A DNA stretch of 59,180 bases. It comes from a virus (lineage: Duplodnaviria > Caudoviricetes). Position numbers and translations under genes: made by a program. The notes under the pieces are model-generated. The model ran no database searches, was not told the origin of the DNA, and worked only from the letters and a program-made list of their open reading frames with translations. The stretch covers positions 1 to 59,180 of IMG/VR virus record IMGVR_UViG_3300014501_000021; one strand, given 5' to 3'. Below are positions 15,405-47,500 of this stretch, one piece after another (position 1 is the first letter of the stretch; each line of letters begins with the position of its first letter).

Positions 15405-15408
15405 AACA

Positions 15409-18261: not shown

Positions 18262-18271
18262 CGGAAATATA

Positions 18272-25565: not shown

Positions 25566-28500
25566 ATGGCAGACACAGCACCTTCTTTAGCGGCAGAGAA
25601 TGCCGAAAGCGGCGTAGTAGTTACATACGTACCCGCTACTAACCAGCCTTCTGTTCCGGGTGGTATACGTGTAGTCGGTCTTATCGGCACGGGATTGAAT
25701 TACAAGAATGTTACCGTTAAGGTAACTCGTGGGTCCGTTCTTAATGGACTTGATCCGCTAACTCCTGTGGCACTATCGCTACCTAGCACGATCACTGATG
25801 AAAACTATGTTGTCTACGCGTTAAATGCTGATTATACTCTTTCATTACCTGAGAGTATCTCTGGCAGCTGGACTCCTGTATCTCTTATAACCGGAATCCT
25901 TGCTCTTAATATTAACGGAGACGGACAGCAGACGATCATGCTTAATCTCGCGGATTCGGGTGGAGCGCAGATCGCAGCAGACATCCAGACTAAGGTGCGC
26001 GCTCTTGTACCTTTCAACTCGTCCAACGCTCTTGCGTATAGCGGCTTCTTAGCCTCTTATAATAATGGACAATTCACGCTAGAGTCTGGAACATTTCCTA
26101 TCGGGTCCGTTGTCGTCAACCCTGCAATCGGTGACGCGGGTATTTTAAATCTAGGAGTCGGTAATCCTGGCGCGGTAGAGACGGCTGGCGGAGGAGTTAA
26201 CTGGGGTCCTGAAGGATTTGCGTTCGATACTGGATCTATTAACGTAGGTGTCGGAGCATTCCCTTACGGAGTTAACCTTGACGGACAGACCTTTGAAGTC
26301 TACGCCAACGGCAGCCAGATGGCGCAGCTCGTTGACTTCGTTGGAGTTAACATTCGCCCTTCCTTCTTTACAGCATTAACAGGTTCTGTATCTCTTACTG
26401 TTGGATCAACAACGGTAACGGGTACGGGTACTACCTTCCTTTCACAGTTAGCTCCTGGCGATATTGTTCAGTTTACAGGAGATCCTACTCATACGTATAC
26501 TGTTGTAAGCATCGCAAGCAATCTCAGCATGCAGCTTGCTACACCTTACGCAGGACCTGCATTAGCTCTTGGATACGCTCTCGTTGCTGCAACTGCCATC
26601 ACGGGATCCGCTGGAGTAGGCACTATCATCAACGGCGATTTAGACATCGCCCCTAACGACCTTACTTCTGTCACTAACTTCCCGCCGGGTGTTGTTAACG
26701 GCGGACAGCATGGTGATGACGCAACCGCCATCGCGGCTCAAGCGGCGGCCTTGGCAGCATTCACAGCCGGGCAGACTGCGGGTGCATCTGGTACTACAAT
26801 TCCATCAACCTTAGATGGACAGACTCTTCTTCCTGGAGCGTATCAGTTTGCGTCGGGCACCGCGACATTGGCTACATCAGGTCCCGGAACTCTTACGTTC
26901 AACGGTCCTTCATCCGCAAGCTGGATCATCTATACAGCTACTACGTTAACGACGGGAGCAGGCGGTACACCTACAATGTCGTTTATTGGTGGATGTTCTG
27001 CGGCAAACGTTCTATGGATTATTGGATCTTCTGCTACACTTAACAGTGGAGTTTCTGGTACTTTTGGTGGAAATCTTATCGCGTATACAAGTATTACGGT
27101 TACTTCAGGTGGAATTGTTAACGGCTCATTGGCAGCGCTGAACGGTGCTATCACTCTATCAGCTCCTACTATCGTTAATGGCTCTTCCGCAAATACCGTT
27201 GTAAGTCTTGGTACTGGAATTATTCAGCAGATGAATGCTGCATTCTCTCCTGTAATAACGTTTAATTCTACTATCTCCTCAGCGTCATATACCGTTACTC
27301 TTCCACAGTTGCCTCAAGCGGGAGATACATTAATTGTATACGTAGGTTCTTCAAGTCCTACTCTTTATACGTGGACTGCGGGAGTACCGCTAGCTACTCA
27401 GTACAACTTGAATCCAGCAACAGGAATCGTAACGTTCAATGCAGCTGCGGCAAATCAATTCGTTGCAATCACTTACGCAGTAGCACCTACGTTAGTAGCG
27501 TCTGTTGATATCGAGGGTAGCGCAAACTACATCAAGGTATCCACTACTTCTAATGATAACGCGGTAGTCCAGATCGGTAATGGTACTGTTAACGCAAGCC
27601 TTGGATTCACAGCAGGTACTCAAGTAGCTGGTCCTAAGGAGCCTGCTTACCTTACGACTTATTCTTTCACGTATGGAACACCAAAGGTATCAACGCTCAC
27701 GCTGGACGATTACGGTCCTACTCTGTACACTGACTTAACAAGTCTTGTTGGAGCGTATGGTCCTGTTGCAACGACAAACGATCTCGCGGGATCTCCTTAC
27801 TCTGTAACTAATACGCTCCCGCTAGGTGCTCAGATTGTCTTTACAAACAGCGCAAACACTGGTGGAATTATGGCAGTACAGTGTAATCCAGCAGATGGTA
27901 CTCCGTTAGCTCAGTTCCAGGCGGCTCTAAATAAGCTAGCATCTGTCCCAGGCGTTAACATCGTTGTATGTTTGACTCCGATGTCTCTTTTGTATCCGTC
28001 TATCGTAGCCCACGTCGTTAACTGCAGTCAGCCGCTAGATGGTCTTTTCCGCACGGCTGTCATGGGGTTTGATCCGACAACAACTACAATTGAGTCAGCA
28101 ATCAATCAGGCGGAAGGAATTGCAGCAAGTGGTAATGGAAGACGCTTCTTAATGCCATGGCCTGCATCTGTCAATATTGCTCTTGCTAACAACACGAACG
28201 CACAACTTGATGGATCCTTCCTTGCAGCTGCTATCGCAGGACTACGTATCAATGGAAACAACGACGTCGCTACTCCGTTACTAAGACAGCAGCTATATCC
28301 GTTCACAACCGCCGCTGTTAACCTTCTTCGCACAGATAAGCTCGAACTGCGCGACGGTGGAGTAACCGTTGTAGAACTTCAGAACGGACTTGTTCGTATC
28401 ACTGAGGATACAACGACCGATCGTTCAACAATTGATAACCAGGAATTCTCTGTAACTGAAATCGTCGACTTCGTTGCAACGACTTGTGCCACACTTCTTA

Positions 28501-28727
28501 ACTCAATCTTCATCGGCGTTAAGATTCTTTCAAATACTACAAGTATCGTTACAGCGACAGTGCAGGTACTTCTTAATAACTTGATCGCCTTGAACATTCT
28601 TACAGACTATCAAAACGTTCAAGTTCAGGTTAACCCGCTGGACCCTAGACAGATCGATATCTCATTCGAAGTCGCTCCTGTATACGGTCTTAGATACATC
28701 TCCGTCACCTTCTCACTAGAGCAGTAA
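25566..28727 (+). CDS. contractile tail sheath protein with multiple inserted domains including a DUF3494-like ice-binding domain
   Basis: N-terminal GVVVT..RVVGLIGTG; C-terminal sheath core (DGSFLAAAIAG..LRDGGVTVVE..VRITEDTTT..QEFSVTEIVDFV..DPRQIDISFEVAPVYGLRYISVTF). Confidence 0.9.
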   Translation: MADTAPSLAAENAESGVVVTYVPATNQPSVPGGIRVVGLIGTGLNYKNVTVKVTRGSVLNGLDPLTPVALSLPSTITDENYVVYALNADYTLSLPESISGSWTPVSLITGILALNINGDGQQTIMLNLADSGGAQIAADIQTKVRALVPFNSSNALAYSGFLASYNNGQFTLESGTFPIGSVVVNPAIGDAGILNLGVGNPGAVETAGGGVNWGPEGFAFDTGSINVGVGAFPYGVNLDGQTFEVYANGSQMAQLVDFVGVNIRPSFFTALTGSVSLTVGSTTVTGTGTTFLSQLAPGDIVQFTGDPTHTYTVVSIASNLSMQLATPYAGPALALGYALVAATAITGSAGVGTIINGDLDIAPNDLTSVTNFPPGVVNGGQHGDDATAIAAQAAALAAFTAGQTAGASGTTIPSTLDGQTLLPGAYQFASGTATLATSGPGTLTFNGPSSASWIIYTATTLTTGAGGTPTMSFIGGCSAANVLWIIGSSATLNSGVSGTFGGNLIAYTSITVTSGGIVNGSLAALNGAITLSAPTIVNGSSANTVVSLGTGIIQQMNAAFSPVITFNSTISSASYTVTLPQLPQAGDTLIVYVGSSSPTLYTWTAGVPLATQYNLNPATGIVTFNAAAANQFVAITYAVAPTLVASVDIEGSANYIKVSTTSNDNAVVQIGNGTVNASLGFTAGTQVAGPKEPAYLTTYSFTYGTPKVSTLTLDDYGPTLYTDLTSLVGAYGPVATTNDLAGSPYSVTNTLPLGAQIVFTNSANTGGIMAVQCNPADGTPLAQFQAALNKLASVPGVNIVVCLTPMSLLYPSIVAHVVNCSQPLDGLFRTAVMGFDPTTTTIESAINQAEGIAASGNGRRFLMPWPASVNIALANNTNAQLDGSFLAAAIAGLRINGNNDVATPLLRQQLYPFTTAAVNLLRTDKLELRDGGVTVVELQNGLVRITEDTTTDRSTIDNQEFSVTEIVDFVATTCATLLNSIFIGVKILSNTTSIVTATVQVLLNNLIALNILTDYQNVQVQVNPLDPRQIDISFEVAPVYGLRYISVTFSLEQ
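26574..27179 (+). other. DUF3494-type ice-binding domain, copy 1 (in tail sheath)
   Basis: YALVAATAIT..INGDLDIAP..SVTNFPPG..G.QH.DD..A..AQ..A..AF; LDGQTLLPGAY; TLTT; AANVLWIIGSSATL; F.GNLIA.TSITV..G..VNGSLAA.NGAITL. This is the full DUF3494 motif series. Confidence 0.85.
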
Positions 28728-28735
28728 TCTGACCA

Positions 28736-29326
28736 ATGGCTACGCCGCAACTACCGCAAACAGAACAGCGTCTAGCGACATCGCTCTCCATTTATTTCTT
28801 ACCGGAGAGTTCGATTAGCTTAAGCACTTCTTTTGCAAGTATCTTTGCGCCGAGATCTACGACAACGGCCGTTGTAAATCAAATGCAACAGTTAGATGGT
28901 ATTGTTTCTTTTAATGAAGAACAGTCTAGAACGTTAGACTGGCGGTATGAAATAGATTCGGACGGCATTGGGGCCCCGCTAGAAGTTATGGCGTCCCCAG
29001 TGCGTCATACTATTAAACTTAAAAGGGCTGTAACGTACTATGCCGACTTAATTAGTATTCTTGGATTCAACTCATTAGGGATTAATTCAAGTCAAGGAAT
29101 ACCCGCTGACGGAACAGTTGACGGCGGATTGCTCGCGCAAGCTATCACAAACCCCTATATCTTCATAAAGAAAGAGATTGATCCGTCGGGTAACGATATT
29201 GTTACTTTTTATAGAAATTGCTTGCTAGGCACCATAACGAAGGATGCGGCTGTAAATGCAGGGGTGCTAGGCATGTATGAAGACGCCGTGATTTACTACG
29301 CAGATCGTCAACTATTTACAGGCTAA
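28736..29326 (+). CDS. tail tube protein paralog 1
   Basis: Directly after the sheath; RLATSLSI..GIVSFNEEQSR..RYEI..IKLKRAVTY..TFYRNCLL tube-like pattern. Confidence 0.7.
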   Translation: MATPQLPQTEQRLATSLSIYFLPESSISLSTSFASIFAPRSTTTAVVNQMQQLDGIVSFNEEQSRTLDWRYEIDSDGIGAPLEVMASPVRHTIKLKRAVTYYADLISILGFNSLGINSSQGIPADGTVDGGLLAQAITNPYIFIKKEIDPSGNDIVTFYRNCLLGTITKDAAVNAGVLGMYEDAVIYYADRQLFTG

Positions 29327-29341
29327 TCGCAGGAGAAATAA

Positions 29342-29869
29342 ATGGCAACACCACAATTACCAGTAACAGTAGCCCGATTATCTACATCGGTTACTATCAG
29401 ACTTATTCCGATGGATACTCTTAATGCGGCAGCATTAGCTAACCCTGCGTCTATTCTGACAGCGGTGCAGAGCTCCCCTATTGGTGCTGTAGAGAGTTTT
29501 TCGGAAACTAATTCGCGCCCAGCGGTAATCCGTTTCGAGATGAACTCTGACGCTCCAGGAGTTGTACAAGAAGTAACTCCTAACCAGGTTGAAGCTCGTA
29601 CTATTACTCTTGATCGCGTTGTATTGTATTCTGGCGACGTTCTCGATACCTTTGATGTTACGAATGGAGATATCGTATTCCAGTATTATCCCTTCGCATT
29701 GATCAAGGTAGAAGTAGCGCCGGCATCCGCTAACCTTCCCGACATTATCACCGTTTATCGTGACTGTTGGTTCACAACTAACCCGAAGGCATACGCAGTC
29801 CGTACTGACTTAAAGATCATCCAGACGGTTAACATCACATACTCAGAGAGAGAAGTCGTACAAGTATAA
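29342..29869 (+). CDS. tail tube protein paralog 2
   Basis: Same MATPQLP start and IGAVESFSETNSR..ITLDRVVLY..TVYRDCWF pattern; strong AGGAG RBS. Confidence 0.75.
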   Translation: MATPQLPVTVARLSTSVTIRLIPMDTLNAAALANPASILTAVQSSPIGAVESFSETNSRPAVIRFEMNSDAPGVVQEVTPNQVEARTITLDRVVLYSGDVLDTFDVTNGDIVFQYYPFALIKVEVAPASANLPDIITVYRDCWFTTNPKAYAVRTDLKIIQTVNITYSEREVVQV

Positions 29870-29897
29870 TTCGTTTTGATTTATCGGAGAAGAAAAG

Positions 29898-30290
29898 ATG
29901 ACACAAGCAACCGCAGGAACGCCCGATCCAAAAAAGCCAATGACGTTAGCAGACATATCCCAGCTTGGTTACATTCAGAAAACCCGCGAAGTATTCGAGG
30001 GTGCGACTCTGACTGTCCAAACTTTGTCGTTATCCCGCCAACAAAAAATCCTACTAAACATTCCCGCCGACACGACGGACCCTCTTGTGCGGTATACTCA
30101 TCTACAGATTGAGACCCTGGCAAATGCGACGCTTGCAATTAACGATGAGAAGTACTCCGAGGCAGATGTAGATCGTTTACGGAAGTTTTACAGTGGTTTG
30201 CAGGCCAGCGTCTTACAGTCGTTCTACGAAGTCTACCAGGAAATGATGGTTGACCAAGAGAAGACGCTTGCGAGTTTAAAAAAAACCTAA
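29898..30290 (+). CDS. tail assembly chaperone (gpG-like)
   Basis: Between tube and tape measure; ends at a slippery site. Confidence 0.75.
   Translation: MTQATAGTPDPKKPMTLADISQLGYIQKTREVFEGATLTVQTLSLSRQQKILLNIPADTTDPLVRYTHLQIETLANATLAINDEKYSEADVDRLRKFYSGLQASVLQSFYEVYQEMMVDQEKTLASLKKT
30275..30286 (+). promoter_or_regulatory. programmed -1 ribosomal frameshift site
   Basis: T-TTA-AAA and A-AAA-AAA X-XXY-YYZ heptamers in frame just before TAA; the -1 frame is open into the 30302 ORF. Confidence 0.8.
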
Positions 30291-30301
30291 ACCTTGAGGA
30301 G

Positions 30302-30625
30302 TTGCCGTTTCGTGACGAATACGAAATATGCAAGCTCTTAAACTGTACTCCTAACGATTCGAAGTTTACGGACCTTACTAAAGCCCAACGGCTTTGGTTC
30401 TTGCTTAATATCCATAAGGATAAAATGGAGCAAGCAGAGATGGTGCTAAATCTCTGCAAGCATATACAGCCACAGGCCTATTTCAAGAAGCAGGCTGACG
30501 CTGTAAATACCGACTTTATCTCGGATATTTTGGCAAAGTTAGGCCGCGAGCTCACTCCCGAAGAAAAACTTGCTTTAAATGTTCCTGACGATAAGGATGA
30601 TGTTGATATAATCACGAGGGACTAA
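30302..30625 (+). CDS. tail assembly chaperone extension (gpT-like; probably made as a frameshift fusion)
   Basis: In the -1 frame relative to 29898; the listed TTG start has no spaced RBS; TAATG-coupled to the tape measure gene. Confidence 0.7.
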   Translation: MPFRDEYEICKLLNCTPNDSKFTDLTKAQRLWFLLNIHKDKMEQAEMVLNLCKHIQPQAYFKKQADAVNTDFISDILAKLGRELTPEEKLALNVPDDKDDVDIITRD

Positions 30626-36550: not shown

Positions 36551-36553
36551 GAT

Positions 36554-37588: not shown

Positions 37589-37589
37589 T

Positions 37590-38165: not shown

Positions 38166-38174
38166 GGAGAATAA

Positions 38175-38651
38175 ATGGATTTTCTTTTACAGACGCTTCA
38201 AAATTATAATGATCCTTATAGTAATCCTGTTTCGAATGCTTTATCCAATACATTTTGGGGTCAAGGCACAAACGATCTAATTGTCGACACTACGGGCGAT
38301 TTTGCTACGGTGGACGGCCTTAACAATTTGGCCCAATCGATGATGAAGATTATTACAACCGAGAGGGGCGCTAATATATTCACACCGATGTACGGCTCTA
38401 CTCTTAACGATTTTGTCGGCGCCGACATTAATATCGATGAGCTTAGAGCTAACGTTAAGACCGACATGATTGACACTCTTCGTATATACCAGTTTATTAA
38501 TCAAGGAAATCCAGATCTAAATGAGCAGATCGATACGTTACAGTCTCTTGCTGTCAACTTAATCCCAGGAATTAACGGAATTAACGTTAGTTTTCAAGTA
38601 ATTACTCGGTCGGGACTCCAAGCGGGTAGTACTATACAAGTCGAAGGATAA
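38175..38651 (+). CDS. baseplate wedge protein, gp25/GPW-like
   Basis: GDFATVDGLNNLAQSMMKIITTERGANIFTPMYGSTL signature. Confidence 0.85.
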   Translation: MDFLLQTLQNYNDPYSNPVSNALSNTFWGQGTNDLIVDTTGDFATVDGLNNLAQSMMKIITTERGANIFTPMYGSTLNDFVGADINIDELRANVKTDMIDTLRIYQFINQGNPDLNEQIDTLQSLAVNLIPGINGINVSFQVITRSGLQAGSTIQVEG

Positions 38652-38654
38652 TCT

Positions 38655-40109
38655 ATGATTCGCACGGTAACTCAAGTAATTAACAGCGCTGTTTCATATA
38701 TCCAAGGCGTCATCCCTGGACTATCTCTTTTGGCAGGTACTGTCGGCAGAGATGTCGTAGTTGAATCCCCCGCTCAAGAATTTGGATTAGTATGGACCGA
38801 GCTGGGCCGCGTTGAGTCTATGCAGCTTATGAATGATCCTACAGCATTCATTAATAATGAGCTTGACGACTTAGCTTCTAGCTTTGGATTAACGAGAAAT
38901 CCCGGTACTGCTTCACAGGGTTCAGCAATTTTTGCGCTTACTACTTTCTCGACAGCATCTTCCAATGTTGTCATTCCTGTCGGTACCGATATCTCTACTC
39001 AGTCTAGTCTTTCTAATAATGTAGTAATTTCTTTCGTGACTACCGCAACAGCTACTTTCGTGGCCGCGAACGCTAGTGAATATTTTAACCCGCTTGATGG
39101 TTTGTATGAATTAACGGTGCCTATCCAAGCCTCCGCAATAGGATCTGCTAGCAACGTCGCGGCTGATACTATCACGGTGTTAACAACTTCTATTCCAGGT
39201 GGCCCTACTGTTAACAACCCTAATCAAACAGCGGGAGGAAGCGATGCGGAATCAGACGCGTCACTGCTATCTCGTATTCAAACTAAGCTAGCGGGTACTG
39301 CTATGGGTACGCCTAACGGCATCCTTAGCTTTGTCGACGCCAACCCTAACGTTATAGCCTCTTTACTTGTTGGCCCAACGGATCCACTATTAGTGCGTAG
39401 CTCGTATGGTAACGCTGCTGACGTATATATCATTGGAGATATTCCAACGCCTGTCACAGAGAGCCAGACGTACATAGCGGGTATTAACACTTACGTGTTG
39501 GAGCAACAGCCTGTAGAGGCTGGGTCTGTTAATTCTATTATTCTTGGAACCGTTGGCGGCGTAGCGTTCAATTTTATACAGAATACTAACTTCGTAGTTA
39601 ACCAAGATAATACGACGTCGTATGGAGGATCGTCATCCGCCCAGACTTCTATTACGTTTCTTGGTTCGCCTTTTCCGGACGCCAACACCGCTTTCACAGT
39701 TAACTATTCTATCAATAGTTTAATCGTTACGTTGCAGACTGCAATCAATTCAGACGCTAACCAGATCATCGGTACGAATATTTTGATAAGAGAGGCTATC
39801 GAAATTCTTGTTAACGTTGGTGCCTACATTACTGTCTACCCTGGTTTCACAAAAGCGAATGTAACTGCCGCCGCAGAAAATAACGTTGAAACTTTGTTGA
39901 ATACATCGACGTTAGGAACGTCAATTAGTGAGTCCGATATTATTGCGACTATCCAAGATACGCCAGGAGTGCAGGCGGTTCAGATACCTATCTCCATAGA
40001 AATATCAACTCCTACGATGCCGACGTTTACATCCGTCTCTACGCTTACAACTGCAGAGAACGAATATCTGCGACCGAACCCTGCGCCTAACTCAATAGCA
40101 ATTACTTAA
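38655..40109 (+). CDS. baseplate J-like protein
   Basis: LDDLASSFGLTR..A.G...GSASNVAADTIT..VNNP..TAGGSDAESDASLLSRI..ADVYI signature. Confidence 0.9.
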   Translation: MIRTVTQVINSAVSYIQGVIPGLSLLAGTVGRDVVVESPAQEFGLVWTELGRVESMQLMNDPTAFINNELDDLASSFGLTRNPGTASQGSAIFALTTFSTASSNVVIPVGTDISTQSSLSNNVVISFVTTATATFVAANASEYFNPLDGLYELTVPIQASAIGSASNVAADTITVLTTSIPGGPTVNNPNQTAGGSDAESDASLLSRIQTKLAGTAMGTPNGILSFVDANPNVIASLLVGPTDPLLVRSSYGNAADVYIIGDIPTPVTESQTYIAGINTYVLEQQPVEAGSVNSIILGTVGGVAFNFIQNTNFVVNQDNTTSYGGSSSAQTSITFLGSPFPDANTAFTVNYSINSLIVTLQTAINSDANQIIGTNILIREAIEILVNVGAYITVYPGFTKANVTAAAENNVETLLNTSTLGTSISESDIIATIQDTPGVQAVQIPISIEISTPTMPTFTSVSTLTTAENEYLRPNPAPNSIAIT

Positions 40110-40121
40110 CGAGGATCTAAA

Positions 40122-40739
40122 ATGGCTCTATTAACTCTTAATCCTGTTCCAATTCTATCCACTAGCCTTGTAACAGAATTTGATCAACACACTTTTACTC
40201 CGACATCATATACTTTCCAGCTATATGTTGTGCCTAGCGATGGGGTTGTCTTCTTGCAGGAAGACCCACTGCAGATAAGCCAGAGTATCCCTACAGGAGT
40301 AACTGTTACGGAAACGTCTGGTACTAATGTTGGAACCATGATTGAGGTTACGACAGCGCCAGGTCCTGGCCAATTTCAGGTTAATTATTTTAACGGTTCC
40401 ATACTGTTTAGTATTGCCGTTGGAGGAGACGCAGGAGCCACAGTTGCCGTTTCATATGAAGGAATAGGATCCGTCGTCTTAGCGGAGACTATTAACAATA
40501 TGAATAGTTATCTAATCCCTGCGTACAACTTCGCCGCTACTATCAATCCTTCTAACGACTTGACGAACTTTACTTTTACTAATGTTACGGTTACAGGAAC
40601 TCTTATCGCTGAAGTTAAAGATGTAGAAGCGGTGCTTTCTATGGATCCTGTCTCTCCAGCAGTAGGGCAGATCTGGTTTAATACGACCGACGCTCAATTT
40701 AAAGGATGGAATGGTGCTGCTGTTGTAATCTTAGGATAA
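40122..40739 (+). CDS. baseplate/fibre-associated structural protein
   Basis: PGPGQFQVNY module and C-terminal DPVSPAVGQIWFNTTDAQFKGWNG motif common in fibre proteins. Confidence 0.65.
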   Translation: MALLTLNPVPILSTSLVTEFDQHTFTPTSYTFQLYVVPSDGVVFLQEDPLQISQSIPTGVTVTETSGTNVGTMIEVTTAPGPGQFQVNYFNGSILFSIAVGGDAGATVAVSYEGIGSVVLAETINNMNSYLIPAYNFAATINPSNDLTNFTFTNVTVTGTLIAEVKDVEAVLSMDPVSPAVGQIWFNTTDAQFKGWNGAAVVILG

Positions 40740-40740
40740 T

Positions 40741-43700
40741 ATGTCCTTATACTCAACAATTCTATATACTGGTCCCTACGGCCCTACCAATCTCTATACA
40801 GGTAGCGGAGGAGACCAACTTCAAGACCTCGATTTCTACAGAACAGAAGCCGACGGCGAATACGTATTTCACTGGACATTTTTACAGTCTTTTATAAGTC
40901 CGGCGATCGATAATCTTGATTATGAATTGCAGTTGGATACAAACGAAGATTTTACGTTACCTACTTCTTTTGAAACATTCACTGAAACACCTATAAATAT
41001 TATTGCTCAGGGTTTTTCTGAGTCAGCCGTATACGCTGCGACAAATGCGAGTGGAGAGATTTTATATTTCCAGATTGACGGCGATGGATTTAGAAATATT
41101 ACGCTCGGAGTTGATGTAGGCGGAGCAGCTGTTGCTGCGGATATTCAAGCTAAGGTGAAAGCGTTAACCGCTAATAACCCTGCCCTGCAGGCATCTTATT
41201 CTAATTTTACCGCTGTATTCAATGTTACCCATAACACATACACGTTGACATCAGGCGGTACATCATACACAAGTCAAGTCACTGTATATCCTGGCCCTGC
41301 AGCTTCATTATTATACTTGGGCCGTTCTAACGGAGGATATGAGATAAGAGGAAATACTTATATCTTATCACAGCTTCCCGGCGGAATCTTGTCAGTAACA
41401 GATAGCTCTGGGCTAGTTTACCTTGACGTTTCACAGACTACAAATAGTCCTGCGCCGGGGCAGTACGTTACGAGCTTACCTCTGGGGCAGATATCCTTTA
41501 ACTCTGTAAATGTTCCCGACACAATAACTGTTGTCTATTACCCGTCTACAAGCGCGCCTATTCTTGACTACCAAGATGGTAACGTAGAGAAGGGTTTTAC
41601 TGTTCCGGTACCTTCGCGAATAGCTAGTGCTCCCGTTGTCTTCTACGCTCGAGTAGCTATCAAGCAAGGTAACTCGCTAGGCCCTTGGTCGGATACTCTG
41701 AAGGTATTAACGATCCCGAACGTCATATTGGAAACTGCCAGCCGTCTGTTAAATGCGCTTCCAGATTTTCATGTATATCCTACTGACGATCAATTTAGAC
41801 TTGCGCGTTCTCTTGTTGACGGAATAATCTATGCGCCGGGTAATAGCGTACCTCTGCCTAATTACTTGAGTAATATTGCTAAAGTATACATGGCTTATGC
41901 TAATGAATTCGATACAGAGTATCTTGAAAAAGAAAACTGCATAAGAGATGTTAGACAGGATAGGGTACGAGACGACCGCATTGGTCCTATCCTAGGATCT
42001 TTATATAAGTACCCACAGCCTGCTAACATGGTTAATGTGGATTATCGTTTAATTCTCAGCAACATGAAAGCGGCATCGTTAGACGGTGCTACGTACGAAG
42101 CGGTTAAGCTGGTTGGCGCAGCATTTACTGGAGTCGATCCGACAATATTCCCAATATCAAAAATCCTTAATTTTATAACAGCGGGATTTGATCCAGAGAA
42201 TACTGGCCCTTTTTATGATGGAAATGTCCAGAATATAACTGTTAATTCTAGCTTCCAAGCAACGCTCACTAATGGGACTGCAAACGATCCGATTATTCCT
42301 GGATCGCTTATATCGGGCCCTGAGTCGCTTGTTGCCGTAACGCCGACGATACCGTTAACGTCTCCCTATACTATTACGCTATCGCCTACTCCGGCTAGCG
42401 TTCCTACTATACCTGGGTATACTTTTGTATCCACCACAACATTAGCTAATACGGAAACAGATGTTATTAGCAATACCTTTCCGTACATTATTACTTTACA
42501 GTTTCCGCCTCTTAATATCCCTACGATTTCGGGATACTCATATACAACAGGGGTTCCTTCGCCCACGCAGTTTACTGTTAATTTTACCACAGGCGTTGTC
42601 ACGTTTAACGCGGCGGTTGCGAATACATCCGTTACACCGTCATACTTGTATGCCTCTGCGCTGCCATTATCTGGACAATTTAACGTTAACTTTTTAACAG
42701 GTGTTCTTACGTTCAATGCCGCTCAGGCGGGAATGACTCCTTCGATTACGTACATACCGAATTATCTTAGTGTTCTTTCCGGAGAGACTCTCACAATTAA
42801 CGTCGATAGCCTTGGCCCGCAAACTGTCACATTGGAAGGAGGGCCGTATACAACTAAGGATCAGGTTGCTGCAGCTATCGAAGCGGCTGTACAAGCTCTC
42901 GGAGCTCCTCCAGCGGTTACCTTCTTAGGCCTTTTAGCATACTCTACTATCACTAACGTTGGTTTTACTGTAGTCACAGGGGATGTAGATTTATACCCAG
43001 GTACTTCTGTAACAGGTTTTCCTCCTGGAACTTTCTCTGGTACGTTAAATATAGCAAATCCGGTTGCGCAAAACGCAATGACGGTAGCTACCGCAAAGTA
43101 TACTTCAGGACAAACTGCAGGTCTCGCGGGTACTACAATTCCTTCAGTACTTGATGGACAGACTCTAGTGCCGGGAGCGTATCAGTTTGCGTCGGGTGCT
43201 GCGACGTTAGCGGCGTCTGGTAACGCGTCTATGACGTTCAACGGTGCAGGTAATTACATTATATACACCGCGAGTACTCTTAAGACAGGAGCTGGCGGAA
43301 CAGCTACTATGAATCTTACGGGTGGAGCTACTGCGGCTAATATCTTATGGGTAGTTGGATCATCTGCTACTCTTAATATCACTAATGCAGGTGCAGGAAC
43401 CTTTGAAGGCAATGTAATCGCGCAAGCGAGCATTACTACAAACGGCGGAACGATAGATGGGTCACTATCGGCTCTTACAGGTGCGATCACTATTAGTAAT
43501 GCTACTGCGGTGCTGGGCGCAGGCGGCCCCGTTTCTCCTAGTGAAGAAACGGCCTATACGGACTTCTTGGCTAATTATAATTCTGCTACAGATCAATACA
43601 CTCTTATTTCCGGAAATCAGAACCCCACATCGACTAGCACTGTTGTTGTGACGGGAGGTACTGCTGCCACCCAGTTAAGCCTATTAGCAGGTGATGGAGC

Positions 43701-44562
43701 GATTCAGACGTACGGATTAGCTTATGTAACTCCGACTCCGTCTGGCCCCGCGGTTCCAACCGCTGGACAATTTACTAACAACATACTCACTAGCAATGGA
43801 AGTCTGTTAACATTCCCCGCGATTGAAGTAGGCAACCAGCACACAGTACTTTTTTATTCAGCTAATGAAATTTTTACGTATCTTCCTGGAAAGTATACAG
43901 AAACGCTCGTAGTTCCGTCTGTTGCTCCTTATACAGTAACTACATTATACCCTTCCTGCGATATTCCTGTCGTTGCAAAATATGATGCAGGAACTGTATC
44001 TACTGTGCATAATACGAATACTATGACTGGATCTGGAACCTCCTTTTTAACAGATTACTCGCCAGGCGATACTGTCGCATTTTCAGGACAGATGGGAGAT
44101 AGTATTACGTATACTGTCGCGTCCGTTGCTGATGATTTTAATTTAACGGTAACATCTAGCTATACTGGATTAACAACTTCAGGTCTTTTGAGTAACTTAA
44201 GTAGAGGCTACCAGTTTGTACCAACTCCTACAGTAGTGGTACCTCCGGCCGCTTTACCTCCTCCAGTGGTGCTCCTAGCGGATCAATGGACGGATAATTT
44301 TGATTCTCCTGCAACTTTAACGTTTAACGCGTCGTTCGTGAGTAAGGTAGTAGTTGTATCATATACGATAAGGGTTCCTATCCAAGACATAGATACGGTT
44401 AAAGACCATCCTATATTATTTAGCGGTACCGAAGCAGGATTCGGCATTGAAATTATCTTAAACAATCCGGGGCTATTCACTTTGGACCTAACGACCATAG
44501 CATTCCTAATGACCGAAATACTACCAGCGACAACTAAATTCATTCTGACGGAAGTAGAATAA
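40741..44562 (+). CDS. large baseplate wedge protein (tail protein I-like core) with inserted modules including a DUF3494-like domain
   Basis: LLNALPDF..LGSLY..YRLIL..GAT.EAVK..FTG core and C-terminal EILPATT motif; follows baseplate J. Confidence 0.7.
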   Translation: MSLYSTILYTGPYGPTNLYTGSGGDQLQDLDFYRTEADGEYVFHWTFLQSFISPAIDNLDYELQLDTNEDFTLPTSFETFTETPINIIAQGFSESAVYAATNASGEILYFQIDGDGFRNITLGVDVGGAAVAADIQAKVKALTANNPALQASYSNFTAVFNVTHNTYTLTSGGTSYTSQVTVYPGPAASLLYLGRSNGGYEIRGNTYILSQLPGGILSVTDSSGLVYLDVSQTTNSPAPGQYVTSLPLGQISFNSVNVPDTITVVYYPSTSAPILDYQDGNVEKGFTVPVPSRIASAPVVFYARVAIKQGNSLGPWSDTLKVLTIPNVILETASRLLNALPDFHVYPTDDQFRLARSLVDGIIYAPGNSVPLPNYLSNIAKVYMAYANEFDTEYLEKENCIRDVRQDRVRDDRIGPILGSLYKYPQPANMVNVDYRLILSNMKAASLDGATYEAVKLVGAAFTGVDPTIFPISKILNFITAGFDPENTGPFYDGNVQNITVNSSFQATLTNGTANDPIIPGSLISGPESLVAVTPTIPLTSPYTITLSPTPASVPTIPGYTFVSTTTLANTETDVISNTFPYIITLQFPPLNIPTISGYSYTTGVPSPTQFTVNFTTGVVTFNAAVANTSVTPSYLYASALPLSGQFNVNFLTGVLTFNAAQAGMTPSITYIPNYLSVLSGETLTINVDSLGPQTVTLEGGPYTTKDQVAAAIEAAVQALGAPPAVTFLGLLAYSTITNVGFTVVTGDVDLYPGTSVTGFPPGTFSGTLNIANPVAQNAMTVATAKYTSGQTAGLAGTTIPSVLDGQTLVPGAYQFASGAATLAASGNASMTFNGAGNYIIYTASTLKTGAGGTATMNLTGGATAANILWVVGSSATLNITNAGAGTFEGNVIAQASITTNGGTIDGSLSALTGAITISNATAVLGAGGPVSPSEETAYTDFLANYNSATDQYTLISGNQNPTSTSTVVVTGGTAATQLSLLAGDGAIQTYGLAYVTPTPSGPAVPTAGQFTNNILTSNGSLLTFPAIEVGNQHTVLFYSANEIFTYLPGKYTETLVVPSVAPYTVTTLYPSCDIPVVAKYDAGTVSTVHNTNTMTGSGTSFLTDYSPGDTVAFSGQMGDSITYTVASVADDFNLTVTSSYTGLTTSGLLSNLSRGYQFVPTPTVVVPPAALPPPVVLLADQWTDNFDSPATLTFNASFVSKVVVVSYTIRVPIQDIDTVKDHPILFSGTEAGFGIEIILNNPGLFTLDLTTIAFLMTEILPATTKFILTEVE
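42922..43512 (+). other. DUF3494-type ice-binding domain, copy 2 (in baseplate protein)
   Basis: FLGLLAYSTITNVGFTVVTGDVDLYPGTSVTGFPPG..LDGQTLVPGAY..STLKTG..GGATAANILWVVGSSATL..FEGNVIAQASITT..IDGSLSALTGAITI. Confidence 0.9.
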
Positions 44563-44563
44563 C

Positions 44564-47500
44564 ATGCAGAAAGAACAATTCTTTGAAGATCAACCAATAC
44601 TCGTAAGCGATCTAGAGCTTGCGCAAAGTAGTAAGGAGAGCGCTATCGAACAGCGTCAGCGCGATCTTCTAGATCCTGGCGTCATCATCGGTTCTCAATT
44701 ATTGGGCGAAGTTAGCGCTATGCAAGTTACTAACTCTGCTGACGGGGTAACAAGCGTCGGTTTATTTATTACCGTTAATACCGGTGTCGCCGTCTCCCCT
44801 ATAGCTGAGCGTATTATTATCCCTTCTTTAATAACCTATAACGTGGCGAACCCTATAGCCGTATCAGACAATGGAATTGGTGGAACGGTATTAACTCCGC
44901 AATCTTCTGGGTCTTTAAATGTGCCTGTAATGGATCGATCAATTCCCGGAGGTACAATTAACTGTATCTGGGTAGGTTATCTAGAAACAACCGATACAAC
45001 TGTATTTACAATAAGCGAGGGAAATAATTCCCGCTTATTTGTTAAGCACGACGACGGTTATACTATTGCGGTAACAAGTGCTCCTTCTAACGGACCGGCT
45101 GCTTACACAAATCCTGACCCGTCTGTTTATGTCTTAGTTGCGCAGGTTACTACGAATGGTGGGCTCGTTACATTAATCAACCAAACTAACTTCCTACAAC
45201 CTGCGACGTTTAGTGGAACTATACCGTCTCTTTCACCGTATCAGCTATCATTAATTGGATCTATTCTACCTAATCTTCCGCCGGACTTAGATAGACCTAA
45301 TAGTATTCCAGCTATTCCAGGCTTTACTTACACCGCAGGCGCACCTGCAGCGGGACAATTCTCCGTCAATTTCACTACAGGAACCTTAACGTTTAATGTA
45401 GCAAATGCAAGCACAGCTATAACTGCGTCGTTTCTGGTTTTGAATGTATGTATTCAAAACAGCGTCACTACAGGTAGTACGGTGGGAGCACAGTTGCACT
45501 TGAACGAAAAGACGTTAGTGTATGCTCTTGGATCGGAAGTCACACTAACAGGTCATGTCAACGCTTACGGATCAGGCGTTGTTGGCCCTAATAACCCTCA
45601 CGGAATAGGCGCTGCTGACATCGGATTAGCTAGTGTTAACGAGCTTGGTATCGTATTGGCGGATCAGGGTCTCGTAACTCCCACAGGAAATGCTAGCTCT
45701 ACTACTTCATCTTTATCTCCTTCAGCAGTTTTCCAGGCGTTGCCTCCGTCGGCTAACCTTGTAACTATCGCGCCACTCATTGCAGGCGAGTATGTAAACT
45801 TAAGTGGAAGTATCGTTTCAGCTACTAATATCCCTATTGCGACAACATTCAGCTTTGTAAATCCAAATACGCTAGCACCTCTTCCTGCGGGCACTTATTA
45901 CTTTTACATAGATCCTACGCTACTTACTGTACAACAAGGTACTTCATTACCTACAGGTGCTTACCCTATAGCTTCTATTATGTGGAATGGAGCTACAGTT
46001 GTACTACCAGTAACTGATCTTCGCACATTTGGAGTTATCGGTAAAAATAATCTTCGATTAGAAGTTTTGTTAGGTTTGGCGACGGGAGCGGCTACTGATA
46101 ATAGAACAACTACTCTTTATAGTGCTAAAGTTATTGGGTCAAATATTGCAGTAGCGCCTTACTCTACCTTTGCGGTAGGAGGCTATACGCTAGATATAAC
46201 AGTAAATGGTAACCCAGAGTCAGTAACATTTACAGGCACACTGGGTTCTAATTTATTAATATCGCAAGTTGTTGAACAAATCGAATCGGCTATCCCTAGT
46301 ATAACTGCAGTGGCACTAGATAATCAATTAAAGCTTTTATCGTCGGAATCGATAGCGGTTACAAGTGGCACTGCAGCCACTGTGCTTGGTTTTACGGGTG
46401 TCGCTACCGCAGGTACTTCTGTATCTGGAGTAGGACCCGCAACTACCGCTGCGCCCTCCGGCCTGACGTTCTATGTAAATATCAACGGAGACGGTGCTCA
46501 AGCAGTTAATATCCCGGATACGGCTACTACTGGAGCGTTAGTTGCGTCGGATATGCAAGCTGCTATCGAGGCTCTTATTGCGTTTAACCCAGGCAACCAA
46601 GCGGCTATCAATGCTACAACTGTTTCCTATTCTGCAGGAACAGGATATGCTTTACTTGCTTATTCAGCTATCACAGGCTCTACAGGGATTGGATCTACGG
46701 TTAACGGCAGTCTTTATATTACCCCTACCGCTTTAACGGGTATTACTAACTTCCCTCCTAGCACGTATAGCGGTGTTGAGCTTGGAGGGTCGGCACCCGC
46801 AGCTGTGGCGGCTATGACAGCAGCTAATACTACCTACTCTAACGTTGTATTGGCATCTTCAGGATATACAACTATCTTGCCTACTCTTGATGGTCAGATA
46901 TTAACTCCAGGAGGGTACAACGCAGGTGCCGCTCATTTAGCTACTTCTGGACCAGCTACTCTTACATTCAACGGCGCGGGCAATTATACTATCTATTGTT
47001 CAAGTACTTTGGTGACAGGTGCAGGAGGTATCCCAACTATGAATCTTACGGGAGGAGCTACCGCTGCTAATATCCTATGGGTAGTTGGATCATCTGCTAC
47101 TCTTAACTCAGGTACGGCGGGTACTTTTCAAGGAAGTGTTATAGCTAATGCTAGCATTACGGTTACCGCAGGAGGTACTATTAATGGATCGTTAGCAGCT
47201 CTTAACGGGGCCGCTACTCTTACGGGTACTACGATAGTTAATGCGCCAGCGTCTGGTCCTGCTGAATACATAATTACCTCAGGTACTGTAGGATCAAATA
47301 GCTCAGTCGTTATCACAGGCGCGGGAGCAGCTACACTAGAATTAGGGGTGCCGAATGGTGGTACTGAAACTACCGGAAGCGGCGGTTCAACGGATAGCGG
47401 TAACATTAAAGAAATCTTGATAACCGGAAGTACTTCTTCTACCGGTGTTGCGGGGCAGATTATCCCGGCTGAAATGGATTTAATCTATAATGGAAGCGGG

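What the first reader, a model, noticed from the sequence alone, without database searches (positions are those of the whole stretch)
26574..47242. Three DUF3494-type ice-binding domains built into the tail sheath, baseplate and tail fibre: a candidate ice-binding virion
Seen: a ~200-aa domain occurs in frame at 26574-27179 (sheath), 42922-43512 (baseplate wedge) and 46646-47242 (fibre). Each copy has the ordered motifs (F/Y)xL(L/V)AxxxIT / (GD or GS)xxxxP / FPP / long Ala helix / LDGQxLxPGxY / AAN(I/V)LW(V/I)(V/I)GSSATL / FxG.(V/L)IA..SIT / GSL.ALxGA. Established: this is the DUF3494 (IBP-1) discontinuous beta-solenoid with a flanking helix, known from secreted or surface ice-binding proteins of cold-adapted bacteria, algae and fungi. 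Inference: the phage displays ice-binding domains on three parts of its tail, for attachment to ice or brine-channel surfaces, freeze-thaw protection, or co-localisation with ice-bound hosts. I know of no characterised phage with this architecture but cannot confirm novelty here.
Basis: partly seen in the sequence, partly recalled or inferred. Interest (0 to 1): 0.95.

Follow-up and report, generated by a model that had tools for sequence, protein, structure and literature searches.

The report
Ice-binding-type domains on phage tail
An uncultivated, roughly 200-kb phage found in permafrost and peat samples has the same ice-binding-type protein module built into its tail sheath and two tail-end proteins, so the virus particle may stick to ice or to some other surface, an arrangement not described for any studied phage.

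Summary
Three PF11999 (DUF3494, "Ice_binding") domains lie in frame at the stated coordinates, scoring 73-96 bits against a 28.7-bit cut-off. They sit in the tail sheath, in a 1273-aa protein at the tail-fibre position, and in a 1014-aa fibre-like protein. AlphaFold2 models two copies at pLDDT 86-98. The top 30 Foldseek PDB hits are solved ice-binding proteins, with TM 0.61-0.86.

New findings:
- The domain is a plug-in cassette. A complete 210-kb sister phage has syntenic orthologues of all three genes but no PF11999.
- A second, roughly 60%-identical phage has the same three insertions.
- The copies belong to a phage-type DUF3494 clade. At least 97 IMG/VR stretches encode it, and it is only 33-44% identical to cellular homologues.
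- Isolated phages, PHROGs and phage entries in BFVD lack the domain.
- The phage occurs in permafrost-labelled and peat runs.

Ice binding itself is untested. PF11999 is common in soil bacteria. My reading is a multivalent virion-surface adhesin, with ice as the leading but unproven ligand (about 0.4). This is a new variant of a known kind.

The parts
25566..28727 (+). Tail sheath gene (1053 aa) carrying DUF3494 copy 1 in a variable insertion region between a conserved N part (aa 1-255) and a conserved C part (aa ~650-1053)
   Evidence: PF17482 at aa 961-1050 and PHROG tail sheath 2839/279. tblastn matches the sheaths of 226 phage records, and all 30 rows shown align only to query aa 664-1051. 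Alignment A2 with 9 homologues. Foldseek hits to phage 812, pyocin R2 and P1 sheaths are weak because the core is modelled at low confidence.
26574..27179 (+). DUF3494 copy 1 (sheath aa 337-538)
   Evidence: PF11999 E 3.7e-27. phmmer to 6eio gives 2.4e-20. AF2 pLDDT is 86-97 with a helix at 386-407. Foldseek TM to solved IBPs is 0.67-0.86.
25878..26180 (+). About 100-aa alpha/beta module (motif INGDG...) in the sheath, aa 105-205. The same module hosts the nested DUF3494 in the other two carriers.
   Evidence: Internal blastp matches to 40741-44562 aa 107-204. pLDDT is 80-93. The module is conserved in all 10 rows of A2.
26358..26570 (+). About 70-aa module directly upstream of copy 1, shared with 24685-25536 and with 40741-44562 aa 1081-1149
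   Evidence: PHROG 1980/9922/2712 'tail fiber' N-terminal stretch. Present in 7 of 10 rows of A2.
40741..44562 (+). 1273-aa protein at the tail-fibre position, downstream of Baseplate_J and a 205-aa gene. It carries copy 2.
   Evidence: Gene order. Body homologues P0188-P0190 (855-986 aa) lack PF11999, and alignment A7 shows a clean insertion.
42922..43512 (+). DUF3494 copy 2 (aa 728-925), nested inside an INGDG-type module that is uninterrupted in the orthologues
   Evidence: PF11999 E 8.1e-24. The A7 insertion point lies between '...AVQALGA' and '...SPSEE'.
44564..47608 (+). 1014-aa fibre-like protein carrying copy 3. Its N-terminal 170 aa are 49% identical to the start of the next gene, 48422-50584.
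   Evidence: Orthologues of 664-802 aa (P0192-P0199) lack the cassette, and P0089 (1077 aa) has it.
46451..47383 (+). Inserted cassette in the 1014-aa protein: an INGDG-type module with DUF3494 nested inside it (approximate bounds, aa ~630-940)
   Evidence: Alignment A8. In the complete sister phage, query aa 623-938 have no counterpart.
46646..47242 (+). DUF3494 copy 3 (aa 695-893)
   Evidence: PF11999 E 3e-20. AF2 pLDDT is 90-98 with a helix at 745-767. The Foldseek top 30 are IBPs, TM up to 0.81.
38175..40109 (+). Baseplate genes that fix the context: a gp25-like wedge (38175-38651) and Baseplate_J (38655-40109)
   Evidence: PHROG 975/120/43 and PHROG 6. PF04865 E 5e-21.
359..1360 (+). Major head protein. 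It shows that the window is a phage and not a tail-like injection system.
   Evidence: phrog_2522 E 4.5e-32. tblastn to the Bacillus phage G and Tunturiibacter phage Tunturi_5 head proteins.

Best explanation
The window is about 28% of an uncultivated myovirus of roughly 200 kb. A phage-specific subfamily of the DUF3494 (IBP-1) beta-solenoid has been inserted as a self-contained cassette into surface loops of three tail proteins: the sheath, the protein at the tail-fibre position after Baseplate_J, and a second fibre-like protein. The N- and C-termini of this fold lie next to each other, so the domain can nest in a loop without breaking its host module (shown for copies 2 and 3).

Each copy keeps a flat, uncharged face made of Thr, Ser, Ala and Asn. 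This is the putative b-face, which is the ice-binding face in solved relatives. It is the most conserved exposed surface in the clade.

If the sheath copies point outward, as insertion domains of sheath proteins generally do (inferred), the tail would carry on the order of 100 copies along the sheath plus more at the baseplate end. That makes the tail a rigid multivalent adhesive rod.

I take ice, or ice-like ordered water films in frozen peat, as the most likely single ligand. It would hold virions at ice-water interfaces or within ice over freezing periods.

Shown: domain identity, fold, insertion architecture, lineage pattern, and presence in permafrost-labelled and peat runs. Inferred: outward display, copy number, adhesion, and the ligand.
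For: 1. Family and fold. PF11999 scores 73-96 bits. Sequence hits reach experimentally studied IBPs 6eio, 7bwx/7bwy and 6bg8. AF2 pLDDT is 86-98 for two copies, and 30 of the top 30 Foldseek PDB hits are DUF3494 IBPs.

2. The putative b-face. Its 16 outward positions have mean entropy 0.82 against 1.35 for all positions in the 91-sequence clade. Only 24 of 10,000 random 16-position sets score as low. Composition is T 47%, S 25%, A 16%, N 6%. In the alignment to ice-active 6eio, the phage keeps Thr where 6eio has T/S/T/T, and has T/S where 6eio has D/E. The domains have 0-1% K+R. A face with no aromatic or charged residues is unlike typical sugar-binding sites (general knowledge).

3. A conserved three-site pattern. 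A complete sister phage (G010, 210,348 bp, terminal repeats) has syntenic orthologues of all three genes and 0 PF11999 matches. A second phage (G011), whose sheath is about 60% identical, has exactly three PF11999 domains in the same genes with similar spacing. The sheath is not a receptor-binding part, so this argues for a generic extended target.

4. Habitat. One permafrost-labelled run holds 99% of the sampled words but may be the source. Three further permafrost-labelled runs from three studies, and one peat RNA library, hold contigs identical over 181-409 nt.

5. Precedent. A DUF3494 domain serves as a cell-surface ice adhesin in Shewanella frigidimarina (PDB 6bg8; passage of PMC12337378).
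Against: - No ice activity has been measured for any member of this phage-type clade.
- The clade is only 33-44% identical to the best of 138 cellular matches. It scores far lower against the Pfam model than cellular members do: 73-101 bits against 126-248 for most.
- PF11999 is not cold-specific. It occurs in 32 of 301 sampled genomes of one phylum and in many soil and freshwater taxa by record title. A passage of PMC11237643 lists it among abundant Pfams across all soils.
- The Thr ladder is also conserved in the cellular outgroup, so it may be structural.
- In PMC12337378, Ser/Gly/Thr rather than Ala in b-face column 2 is linked to possibly lower ice-binding efficiency.
- My face assignment rests on strand order in the model, not on coordinates.
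- The sheath copy has been swapped as a cassette between lineages. P0006 flanks are 72-94% identical to the window's sheath but its domain is only 48% identical. That pattern is more usual for host-interaction modules.
- The habitat evidence covers this phage only. The label 'permafrost metagenome' does not prove frozen conditions, and the 2019 studies may be one campaign.
- Habitats of the other IMG/VR carriers were not examined.
Confidence: 0.4

Rival explanations
1. Non-ice adhesin. The same surface-displayed modules bind a host-envelope polymer (capsule, EPS or cell-wall glycan) or soil organic or mineral surfaces. This would raise host encounter or retention, in the way Ig-like decoration domains are thought to work on other phages.
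For: DUF3494-type domains are described as substrate-binding or adhesive as well as ice-binding (PMC12337378 passages). PF11999 is widespread in soil bacteria. Within the phage-type clade, the few co-domains found are host-interaction parts: Phage_depo_C in 1, End_tail_spike in 1 and a chitobiase C-terminal domain in 1 of 76 members. Neighbouring genes are often baseplate, tail or fibre genes. The sheath domain shows cassette exchange. The virion carries many other putative binding modules.
Against: The conserved face has no aromatic or charged residues, which is atypical for sugar binding. That face is highly conserved across three different carriers and many phages, whereas receptor-binding surfaces usually vary. 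Display on the sheath is odd for a specific receptor. No ligand is known for any PF11999 member other than ice (PMC8286594 passage).
Confidence: 0.33
2. Structural decoration without an external ligand. The solenoid stiffens or shields the tail, for example by stabilising the extended sheath or fibres against premature contraction, proteases, low pH or drying.
For: The sheath family has an insertion hot-spot that accepts several unrelated modules. The domain is compact, uncharged and confidently folded. Thr ladders can be structural and are shared with the outgroup.
Against: This does not explain why the same domain was placed in three unrelated proteins and kept in all three in a second, divergent phage. 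It also does not explain why an exposed face is more conserved than the hydrophobic core positions (b_out 0.82 against b_in 1.09 and c_in 1.16).
Confidence: 0.17
3. Auxiliary gene for host cryoprotection. The domains act like the 'ice-binding-like' AMGs proposed for Arctic viral contigs and protect the infected cell rather than the virion.
For: PF11999 genes on Arctic vOTUs were interpreted in this way (PMC11515562 passages).
Against: Here the domains are internal parts of the sheath and tail-end proteins, not free genes. They have no signal peptide of their own. Sheath proteins act in the virion.
Confidence: 0.03

Closest known systems
Solved DUF3494 ice-binding proteins (EfcIBP 6eio, AnpIBP 7bwx/7bwy, SfIBP_1 6bg8, LeIBP 3uyu, FfIBP 4nu2, TisAFP 3vn3)
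   Same: Same Pfam family and the same discontinuous beta-solenoid with a flanking helix. Identity is 20-34% and TM 0.61-0.86. The putative b-face is rich in Thr, Ser and Ala.
   Different: Those are secreted or cell-anchored proteins of cold-adapted organisms with measured ice activity. The copies here are internal domains of virion proteins. They belong to a separate phage-type clade with two small clade-specific insertions, and their activity is unknown.
Cell-surface ice adhesins (the Shewanella frigidimarina SfIBP_1 DUF3494 adhesin; the Marinomonas primoryensis 1.5-MDa adhesin)
   Same: An ice-binding module is displayed on a large surface structure to hold a particle to ice (PMC12337378 passage; abstracts of PMC5014055 and PMC5550230 in the listing). 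This is what the phage would work like if ice is the ligand.
   Different: Those sit on bacterial cells in one or a few copies per protein. Here display would be on a virus tail, at three sites and in many copies. MpIBP's ice-binding region is not DUF3494.
'Ice-binding-like' PF11999 genes reported on viral contigs (Arctic vOTUs in PMC11515562; Hyperionvirus DUF3494 proteins in BFVD)
   Same: PF11999 encoded by viruses.
   Different: Those were read as auxiliary metabolic genes for host cryoprotection, or are free 261-623-aa giant-virus proteins. None is reported as part of a sheath, baseplate or fibre. The supplements of PMC11515562, which may show gene contexts, were not open to me.
Accessory decoration domains of phage virions (Ig-like domains such as T4 Hoc; extra outer domains of sheath proteins)
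   Same: A non-essential surface module is inserted in a structural protein, is present in some relatives and absent in others, and is thought to give weak multivalent adhesion (recalled knowledge; the insertion pattern is shown).
   Different: The fold here is a DUF3494 solenoid, not an Ig-like domain. The same module sits at three tail sites at once.
Diatom adhesive trail proteins with a DUF3494-like domain (PF20597)
   Same: A related solenoid is used for adhesion to non-ice substrates (cited in PMC12337378).
   Different: This is a different Pfam family with little sequence similarity to PF11999, according to that paper. The proteins are eukaryotic and secreted.

Membership tests
PF11999 / DUF3494 (IBP-1 fold) | Sequence match to the Pfam model above its gathering score over nearly the full model | tested here: met
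   95.8, 84.9 and 73.2 bits against a 28.7-bit cut-off, covering profile 2-206/207 of 208. Confirmed by a six-frame scan.
PF11999 / DUF3494 (IBP-1 fold) | Discontinuous beta-solenoid braced by one long alpha-helix | tested here: met
   AF2 pLDDT is 86-98, with helices at 386-407 (copy 1) and 745-767 (copy 3) followed by stacked short strands. Foldseek TM is 0.61-0.86 to 30 solved IBP chains. Copy 2 was not modelled; it is 58% identical to copy 1.
PF11999 / DUF3494 (IBP-1 fold) | Flat exposed face of small or hydroxyl residues (putative ice-binding site) | tested here: met
   The b-face outward positions are 94% T/S/A/N and strongly conserved. The face was assigned from strand order in the model and not checked on coordinates. 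The same ladder occurs in the cellular outgroup, so it is not diagnostic.
Functional ice-binding proteins | Measured ice affinity, ice shaping, thermal hysteresis or recrystallisation inhibition | not testable with these tools
   This needs a bench assay. No member of the phage-type clade has been assayed in the papers I searched.
Functional ice-binding proteins | Organism lives where ice forms | tested here: met
   The window's DNA is in one permafrost-labelled run (99% of words, possibly the source). Pieces identical over 181-409 nt are in three more permafrost-labelled runs and one peat RNA run. This was tested for this phage only.
Functional ice-binding proteins | Secretion signal or cell-surface anchor that takes the domain outside the cell | tested here: not met
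   The domains start at aa 337, 728 and 695 of virion proteins. Export would be by virion release. By eye, only 2 of the 52 clade proteins shorter than 480 aa that were printed show a signal-peptide-like start; no predictor was run.
Contractile tail sheath (PF17482, PHROG 2839/279) | Conserved C-terminal sheath domain and a sheath-type core | tested here: met
   PF17482 E 1.1e-6 at aa 961-1050. PHROG 2839 E 1.6e-32 over aa 719-1051. tblastn matches annotated sheaths. The core fold was modelled poorly (pLDDT 40-65), so structural matches to sheaths are weak.
Contractile tail sheath (PF17482, PHROG 2839/279) | Gene context: head genes upstream, baseplate genes downstream | tested here: met
   Major head protein at 359-1360, gp25-like wedge at 38175-38651 and Baseplate_J at 38655-40109. 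The two genes after the sheath (28736-29869) gave no family hit, so calling them tube genes rests on position only.
   The only hits are PF11999 and a 70-aa 'tail fiber' PHROG stretch. The position fits a tail fibre better.

The most novel reading that the evidence does not exclude
The virion itself is an ice-binding particle. About a hundred sheath-borne DUF3494 domains, plus more at the baseplate and fibres, let the phage tail lie on and adhere to ice crystal faces in frozen peat. Virions would then overwinter at or within ice and be released next to hosts on thaw. This trait would have been gained as a three-gene set by one lineage of 200-kb soil phages, and it draws on a large pool of phage-specific DUF3494 modules. 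It would be the first ice-binding virus particle and a natural multivalent ice-binding nanorod.
Probability: 0.35. Interest if true: 0.9.

Novelty: new variant of a known kind. Interest (0 to 1): 0.7.

Why it matters
If the domains bind ice, this would be the first case of a virus particle adapted to ice as a physical surface. Ice-binding proteins are known from cells and have been proposed as viral auxiliary genes, but not as parts of a virion. It would open a mechanism for how phages persist through freezing in permafrost-affected soils, and it would offer a natural rigid scaffold carrying many ice-binding domains.

If ice is not the ligand, the finding still has value. A distinct phage-type DUF3494 clade is widely used in tail, baseplate and other virion proteins of uncultivated phages and is absent from isolated phages. 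That would point to a non-ice function for a family that is annotated everywhere as 'ice-binding' and is counted as a cold-stress marker in soil metagenomics.

The all-or-none contrast between the window's phage and a complete sister genome gives a clean natural experiment for testing.

Tried and rejected
- Diversity-generating retroelement. A weak 'Mtd second domain' hit in 48422-50584 raised this idea. A direct-repeat scan of the whole window found no near-identical template/variable pair, so I dropped it.
- Host or prophage source. The first genome-contig scan, with narrow patterns, found nothing. The second found 138 cellular relatives, all at 44% identity or less and none in a prophage-like match to the clade. 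The host remains unknown. The nearest isolated phages by head, sheath and baseplate proteins are distant (19-37% identity): Bacillus phage G, Virus Rctr197k, Tunturiibacter phage Tunturi_5 and Mycobacterium phages.
- Precedents in studied phages. None was found by tblastn with copy 1 or with a cellular DUF3494, in PHROGs or in BFVD. PMC11515562 says homologues are associated with Synechococcus phage S-SKS1. My two tblastn queries did not recover such a hit, so a distant homologue in that phage is not excluded.
- Genomic context of the short (300-470 aa) clade proteins. A single-protein scan with P0046 found no viral locus. Their N-terminal parts match no PHROG.
- Atlas search of the INGDG-type module returned only unnamed clusters.
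- PF27067, listed for two carriers in precomputed Pfam columns, is not in the library at hand.
- RNA run X7 holds four contigs identical to the 3' end of the sheath gene, the next two genes and Baseplate_J. An RNA library can contain DNA, so I do not claim transcription. Parts of the stretch without cover in X2-X4 and X7 say nothing.
- Literature. 'DUF3494'+'phage' gave 1 paper, not read; in it DUF3494 occurs once. 'ice-binding'+'tail sheath' gave 0 papers. 'ice-binding'+'tail fiber' gave 4 papers. In three of them I read the 'ice-binding' passages and found only reference-list or cryoprotectant mentions; PMC10385804 was seen in the listing only. The five-term search with min_terms 2 was not discriminating; none of its 15 listed papers holds 'ice-binding'. 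'permafrost'+'viral'+'ice-binding' gave 21 papers. I opened passages of two, and neither reports virion-borne domains.
The tables of PMC11515562 that may show the gene context of its three PF11999 genes were not seen.

Full report
WHAT THE WINDOW IS. The window is a whole IMG/VR virus record of 59,180 bp. It is linear, and CheckV rates it 28% complete. Nearly all long ORFs lie on the + strand. Family scans identify:
- a major head protein (359-1360) and a head-decoration-like protein (5337-7943);
- a tail sheath (25566-28727);
- a gp25-like wedge protein (38175-38651) and Baseplate_J (38655-40109);
- helicases at the right end.

No tRNA was found. The nearest isolated phages are distant, at 19-37% identity for head, sheath and baseplate proteins. 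They are Bacillus phage G, Virus Rctr197k, Tunturiibacter phage Tunturi_5 and large Mycobacterium and Rhodococcus myoviruses. A complete sister genome is 210,348 bp. That size fits the 28% completeness estimate.

THE OBSERVATION. Each is a full-length PF11999 'Ice_binding' match:
- sheath aa 340-536, E 3.7e-27;
- 1273-aa protein aa 732-922, E 8.1e-24;
- 1014-aa protein aa 698-891, E 3e-20.

All three score far above the 28.7-bit cut-off. A six-frame scan finds exactly these three, and 17 other ORFs scanned against Pfam had none. The copies are 58-60% identical to copy 1. Copy 1 hits four solved sequences, all ice-binding proteins: 6eio at 2.4e-20, then 7bwx, 7bwy and 6bg8.

The 'sheath' label holds. 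The 'baseplate wedge' label for 40741-44562 has no family support; its place after Baseplate_J and a 205-aa gene is the tail-fibre position. The 1014-aa protein shares its first 170 aa (49% identity) with the next gene. This is what fibres that dock at the same site do.

FOLD. The full sheath was folded with a 40-row alignment. Overall confidence is low (pTM 0.34), but aa 335-540 reach pLDDT 86-97. The model shows a 22-residue helix (386-407) followed by stacked short strands. Foldseek against the PDB returns solved DUF3494 ice-binding and antifreeze proteins as the top 30 listed hits (E 5e-13 to 2.6e-7, target-normalised TM 0.67-0.86, apart from a two-domain chain). Phage sheaths follow, with weak scores. 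The 1014-aa protein gives the same result for copy 3: pLDDT 90-98 over 695-895, with IBPs as the top 30 hits. Copy 2 was not modelled.

THE DOMAIN IS A CASSETTE ADDED TO THREE DIFFERENT PROTEINS.
- Sheath. Twenty proteins align along the sheath body at 50% identity or more. Four carry PF11999 (the window's own, P0005, P0006 and P0007). Sixteen, of 668-871 aa, do not. Alignment of 10 of these 20 shows a conserved N part (aa 1-255) and C part (aa ~650-1053). Between them is a variable region that holds 0-3 extra modules, and the DUF3494 block is present in 4 of the 10 rows.
- 1273-aa protein. Zero of 3 body homologues carry the domain. The alignment shows it nested inside an alpha/beta module of about 100 aa that is uninterrupted in the homologues.
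- 1014-aa protein. One of 9 body homologues carries it. Here the inserted block is that same module type with the DUF3494 inside it.

Raymond's abstract (PMC11645318) says the last coil of this fold ends next to the first. This explains why the domain can sit in a loop.

THE LINEAGE PATTERN.
- The sister phage G010 is 210,348 bp, has terminal repeats and is rated 100% complete. It has no PF11999 match at E 0.01; the same search did find the domain in 12 of 12 other viral records tried.
- G010 nevertheless holds syntenic orthologues of the 1273-aa protein (a 957-aa frame) and of the 1014-aa protein (a 680-aa frame). Query residues 723-931 and 623-938, respectively, have no counterpart there.
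- A second phage, G011 (49,894 bp, 20% complete), has a sheath about 60% identical to the window's. It has exactly three PF11999 domains in the same three genes. They are spaced 16.8 and 4.1 kb apart, against 16.4 and 3.7 kb in the window.
- The three-site set is therefore kept across deep divergence and is wholly absent from a close relative.
- The sheath copy has also been exchanged as a cassette. P0006 is 72-94% identical to the window's sheath in the flanks but 48% in the domain. Its domain is 76% identical to that of P0007, whose flanks are only 53-77% identical to P0006.

A PHAGE-TYPE CLADE.
- phmmer with copy 1 against 1.84 billion cluster representatives gives 5003 hits at E 0.001 or better and 90 at 1e-30 or better.
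- I built a FastTree tree of 217 distinct full-length domain sequences. Duplicates of window proteins were dropped.
- In that tree the three window copies are not each other's nearest neighbours. Their common ancestor spans 91 of 217 tips, with support 0.74.
- Seventy-six proteins of that clade were scanned; three giants were left out for the size limit. All 76 match PF11999. The few with other hits show sheath, tail protein, depolymerase C-terminal, endosialidase tail-spike, invasin D3 and chitobiase C-terminal domains.
- By eye, only 2 of the 52 clade proteins under 480 aa start like a signal peptide.
- One 9-residue pattern found 105 stretches in IMG/VR. Of these, 97 encode a relative at 43-76% identity, and 78 loci were kept.
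- The loci hold 72 distinct carrier frames of about 320-2900 aa. Some have two or three domains, and some are fused to Baseplate_J.
- I scanned 108 immediate neighbour ORFs. The PHROG families matched by most of them include baseplate protein (4 and 3), major tail protein (4 and 3), head decoration (4), virion structural protein (3) and central tail fibre J (3). Many homing or HNH endonucleases also appear. The commonest family is unnamed (10).
- In one genome per 185,579 prokaryote species, the best of 138 relatives are only 33-44% identical.
- The clade has its own marks. Two small insertions, after 'TGAG' and after 'SSATL', are present in 85-91 of 91 clade members but in only 12-15 of 126 outgroup sequences.
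- Isolated phages lack the domain. In BFVD the only DUF3494 matches are three Hyperionvirus (giant virus) proteins.

THE EXPOSED FACE.
- I assigned faces from the strand order in the model. One face is hydrophobic (W/I/Y/L) and should pack on the helix. The other two are exposed.
- The face made of the 'xTxLTx', 'SATLN', 'SITVT' and 'AITLS' strands, plus two N-terminal strands, carries a six-rung Thr ladder at domain positions 10, 34, 124, 155, 175 and 194. Each rung is Thr in 82-91 of about 91 clade sequences.
- Its 16 outward positions have mean entropy 0.82, against 1.64 for the other exposed face and 1.35 overall. Only 24 of 10,000 random sets are as low. They are 94% T/S/A/N.
- The domains have 0-1% K+R and 1-3% D+E.
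- In the phmmer alignment to ice-active 6eio, the ladder positions are T/S/T/T in 6eio and T/T/T/T in the phage. The next column is T/-/D/E in 6eio and T/N/T/S in the phage.
- This fits an ice-binding surface but does not prove one. The ladder is also conserved in the cellular outgroup (70-92%), and the face assignment was not checked on coordinates.
- PMC12337378 (section read) links Ala down b-face column 2 to efficient ice binding. [quoted passage not shown]

HABITAT.
- Of 9 runs that hold part of a 9.9-kb stretch, one permafrost-labelled run holds 99% of the words and may be the source. Five further permafrost-labelled runs hold 7-20%, one run has no organism label, and two are peat metatranscriptomes.
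- I laid four of these on 20 kb. X2, X3 and X4 come from three studies, all dated 2019, so they may be one campaign. They give 33-42 contigs each, many at 99% or more, including pieces with no differences over 181-300 nt.
- The peat RNA run X7 gives five contigs. Four are identical over 201-409 nt and lie on the sheath 3' end, the next two genes and Baseplate_J.
- The phage or very close strains therefore occur in several permafrost-labelled and peat samples. I did not test the habitats of the other IMG/VR carriers or of the domain-free sister.

IS PF11999 A SAFE SIGN OF ICE BINDING? No.
- It is present in 32 of 301 evenly drawn genomes of the phylum of Aquihabitans daechungensis.
- Record titles of the best cellular relatives include Frankia, Kaistia soli, Mesorhizobium, Aurantimonas endophytica, Prosthecobacter, Thermoplasmata and many soil MAGs.
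- A passage of PMC11237643 lists PF11999 among abundant Pfams across 1512 soil metagenomes.
- Many of these soils do freeze in winter, so this does not rule out ice either.
- PMC8286594 treats PF11999 as the one adhesive domain whose ligand is ice.
- On virion cryoprotection, an ice-recrystallisation-inhibiting polymer gave phages no benefit in freeze-thaw tests (PMC8672357, passages).

MECHANISM AND ODDS. Four things are shown:
- a confidently folded IBP-1-type domain;
- its insertion into loops of three tail proteins;
- a set that is kept in one lineage and absent from its sister;
- one conserved uncharged Thr/Ser/Ala face.

Inferred from general knowledge of sheath proteins (recalled): conserved N and C parts form the inner core and inserted domains face outward. 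With a tape-measure candidate of 587 aa (30625-32388; a weak, sub-threshold TMP_3 hit), a T4-like tail of about 90 nm would carry on the order of 130 sheath subunits. The T4 figures are recalled.

A rigid rod with about 100 identical flat faces, plus more at its tip, is a multivalent adhesin. My odds are:
- ice as the ligand, about 0.4;
- a non-ice polymer or surface, about 0.33;
- pure structural decoration, about 0.17;
- an AMG-like role, about 0.03.

The points for ice are the nature of the face, the display on the sheath and the habitat. The points against are the family's wide range, the clade's distance from assayed proteins, and the cassette swapping.

COMPARISON AND NOVELTY. This is a member of PF11999 by sequence and fold. 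It is not shown to be a functional ice-binding protein. If ice is the ligand it would work like the cell-surface ice adhesins. If not, it would work like Ig-type virion decoration.

PF11999 genes on viral contigs have been reported, but as auxiliary genes for host protection (PMC11515562). My searches found no paper that joins DUF3494 or ice-binding with a tail sheath, fibre or baseplate. I rate it a new variant of a known kind.

The architecture, the lineage contrast and the size of the unreported phage-type clade still make it well worth a bench test. My interest score is 0.7.

Noticed in passing
window 10551-21721: Three very large adjacent ORFs (1617, 950 and 1149 aa) share repeated units. 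Direct-repeat family D1 has 10 copies ending in a '...FDG.NMW' type motif. They give weak or borderline hits to SGL/gluconolactonase-like and Vgb_lyase beta-propeller families. They lie between the head and tail genes, and their role in the virion is unknown.
   Followed up: partly
window 48422-50584 and 47618-48412: The 720-aa protein shares its first 170 aa (49% identity) with the DUF3494-bearing 1014-aa protein. It has a weak 'Mtd second domain' hit (E 5.8e-4, below the cut-off). The gene before it is a glycine-rich domain protein (PF21722). No DGR-like template repeat was found in the window.
   Followed up: partly
IMG/VR loci L007, L008, L009, L011, L012, L086, L087, L090, L091, L106 (carriers of about 350-950 aa): In one class of viral proteins the DUF3494 match runs from profile positions ~49-206 and is followed directly by positions 2 to ~57-111. 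This looks like a circularly permuted or extended solenoid. One such protein is named 'VgrG' by its source (P0215).
   Followed up: no
window 25878-26180, 42766-43740, 46451-47383: An alpha/beta module of about 100 aa (motif INGDG..., two helices) recurs in the sheath, twice in the 1273-aa protein and once in the 1014-aa protein. In the last two proteins it is the host of the nested DUF3494. It matches no Pfam or PHROG family, and the Atlas search gave only unnamed clusters.
   Followed up: partly
whole window: All 45 ORFs taken together are very poor in basic residues (K+R 4.6%, D+E 7.3%) and rich in Thr and Ser (19.6%). The virion proteins are a mosaic of short shared modules.
   Followed up: no
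window 28736-29326 and 29342-29869: Two adjacent paralogous genes (31% identity over about 195 aa) lie directly after the sheath, where tube genes are expected. Neither matches any PHROG family.
   Followed up: no
IMG/VR loci L033-L109: Genes next to DUF3494 carriers are often homing, HNH or endonuclease VII genes. At least 8 PHROG families of this kind appear among the 25 commonest families in 108 neighbour ORFs. This suggests mobile endonucleases in these tail modules.
   Followed up: no
window 28490-29826 and 39631-39839: A peat metatranscriptome run (X7) holds contigs identical to the sheath 3' end, the two following genes and Baseplate_J. This hints that the phage was active in that sample, though DNA carry-over cannot be excluded.
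   Followed up: partly
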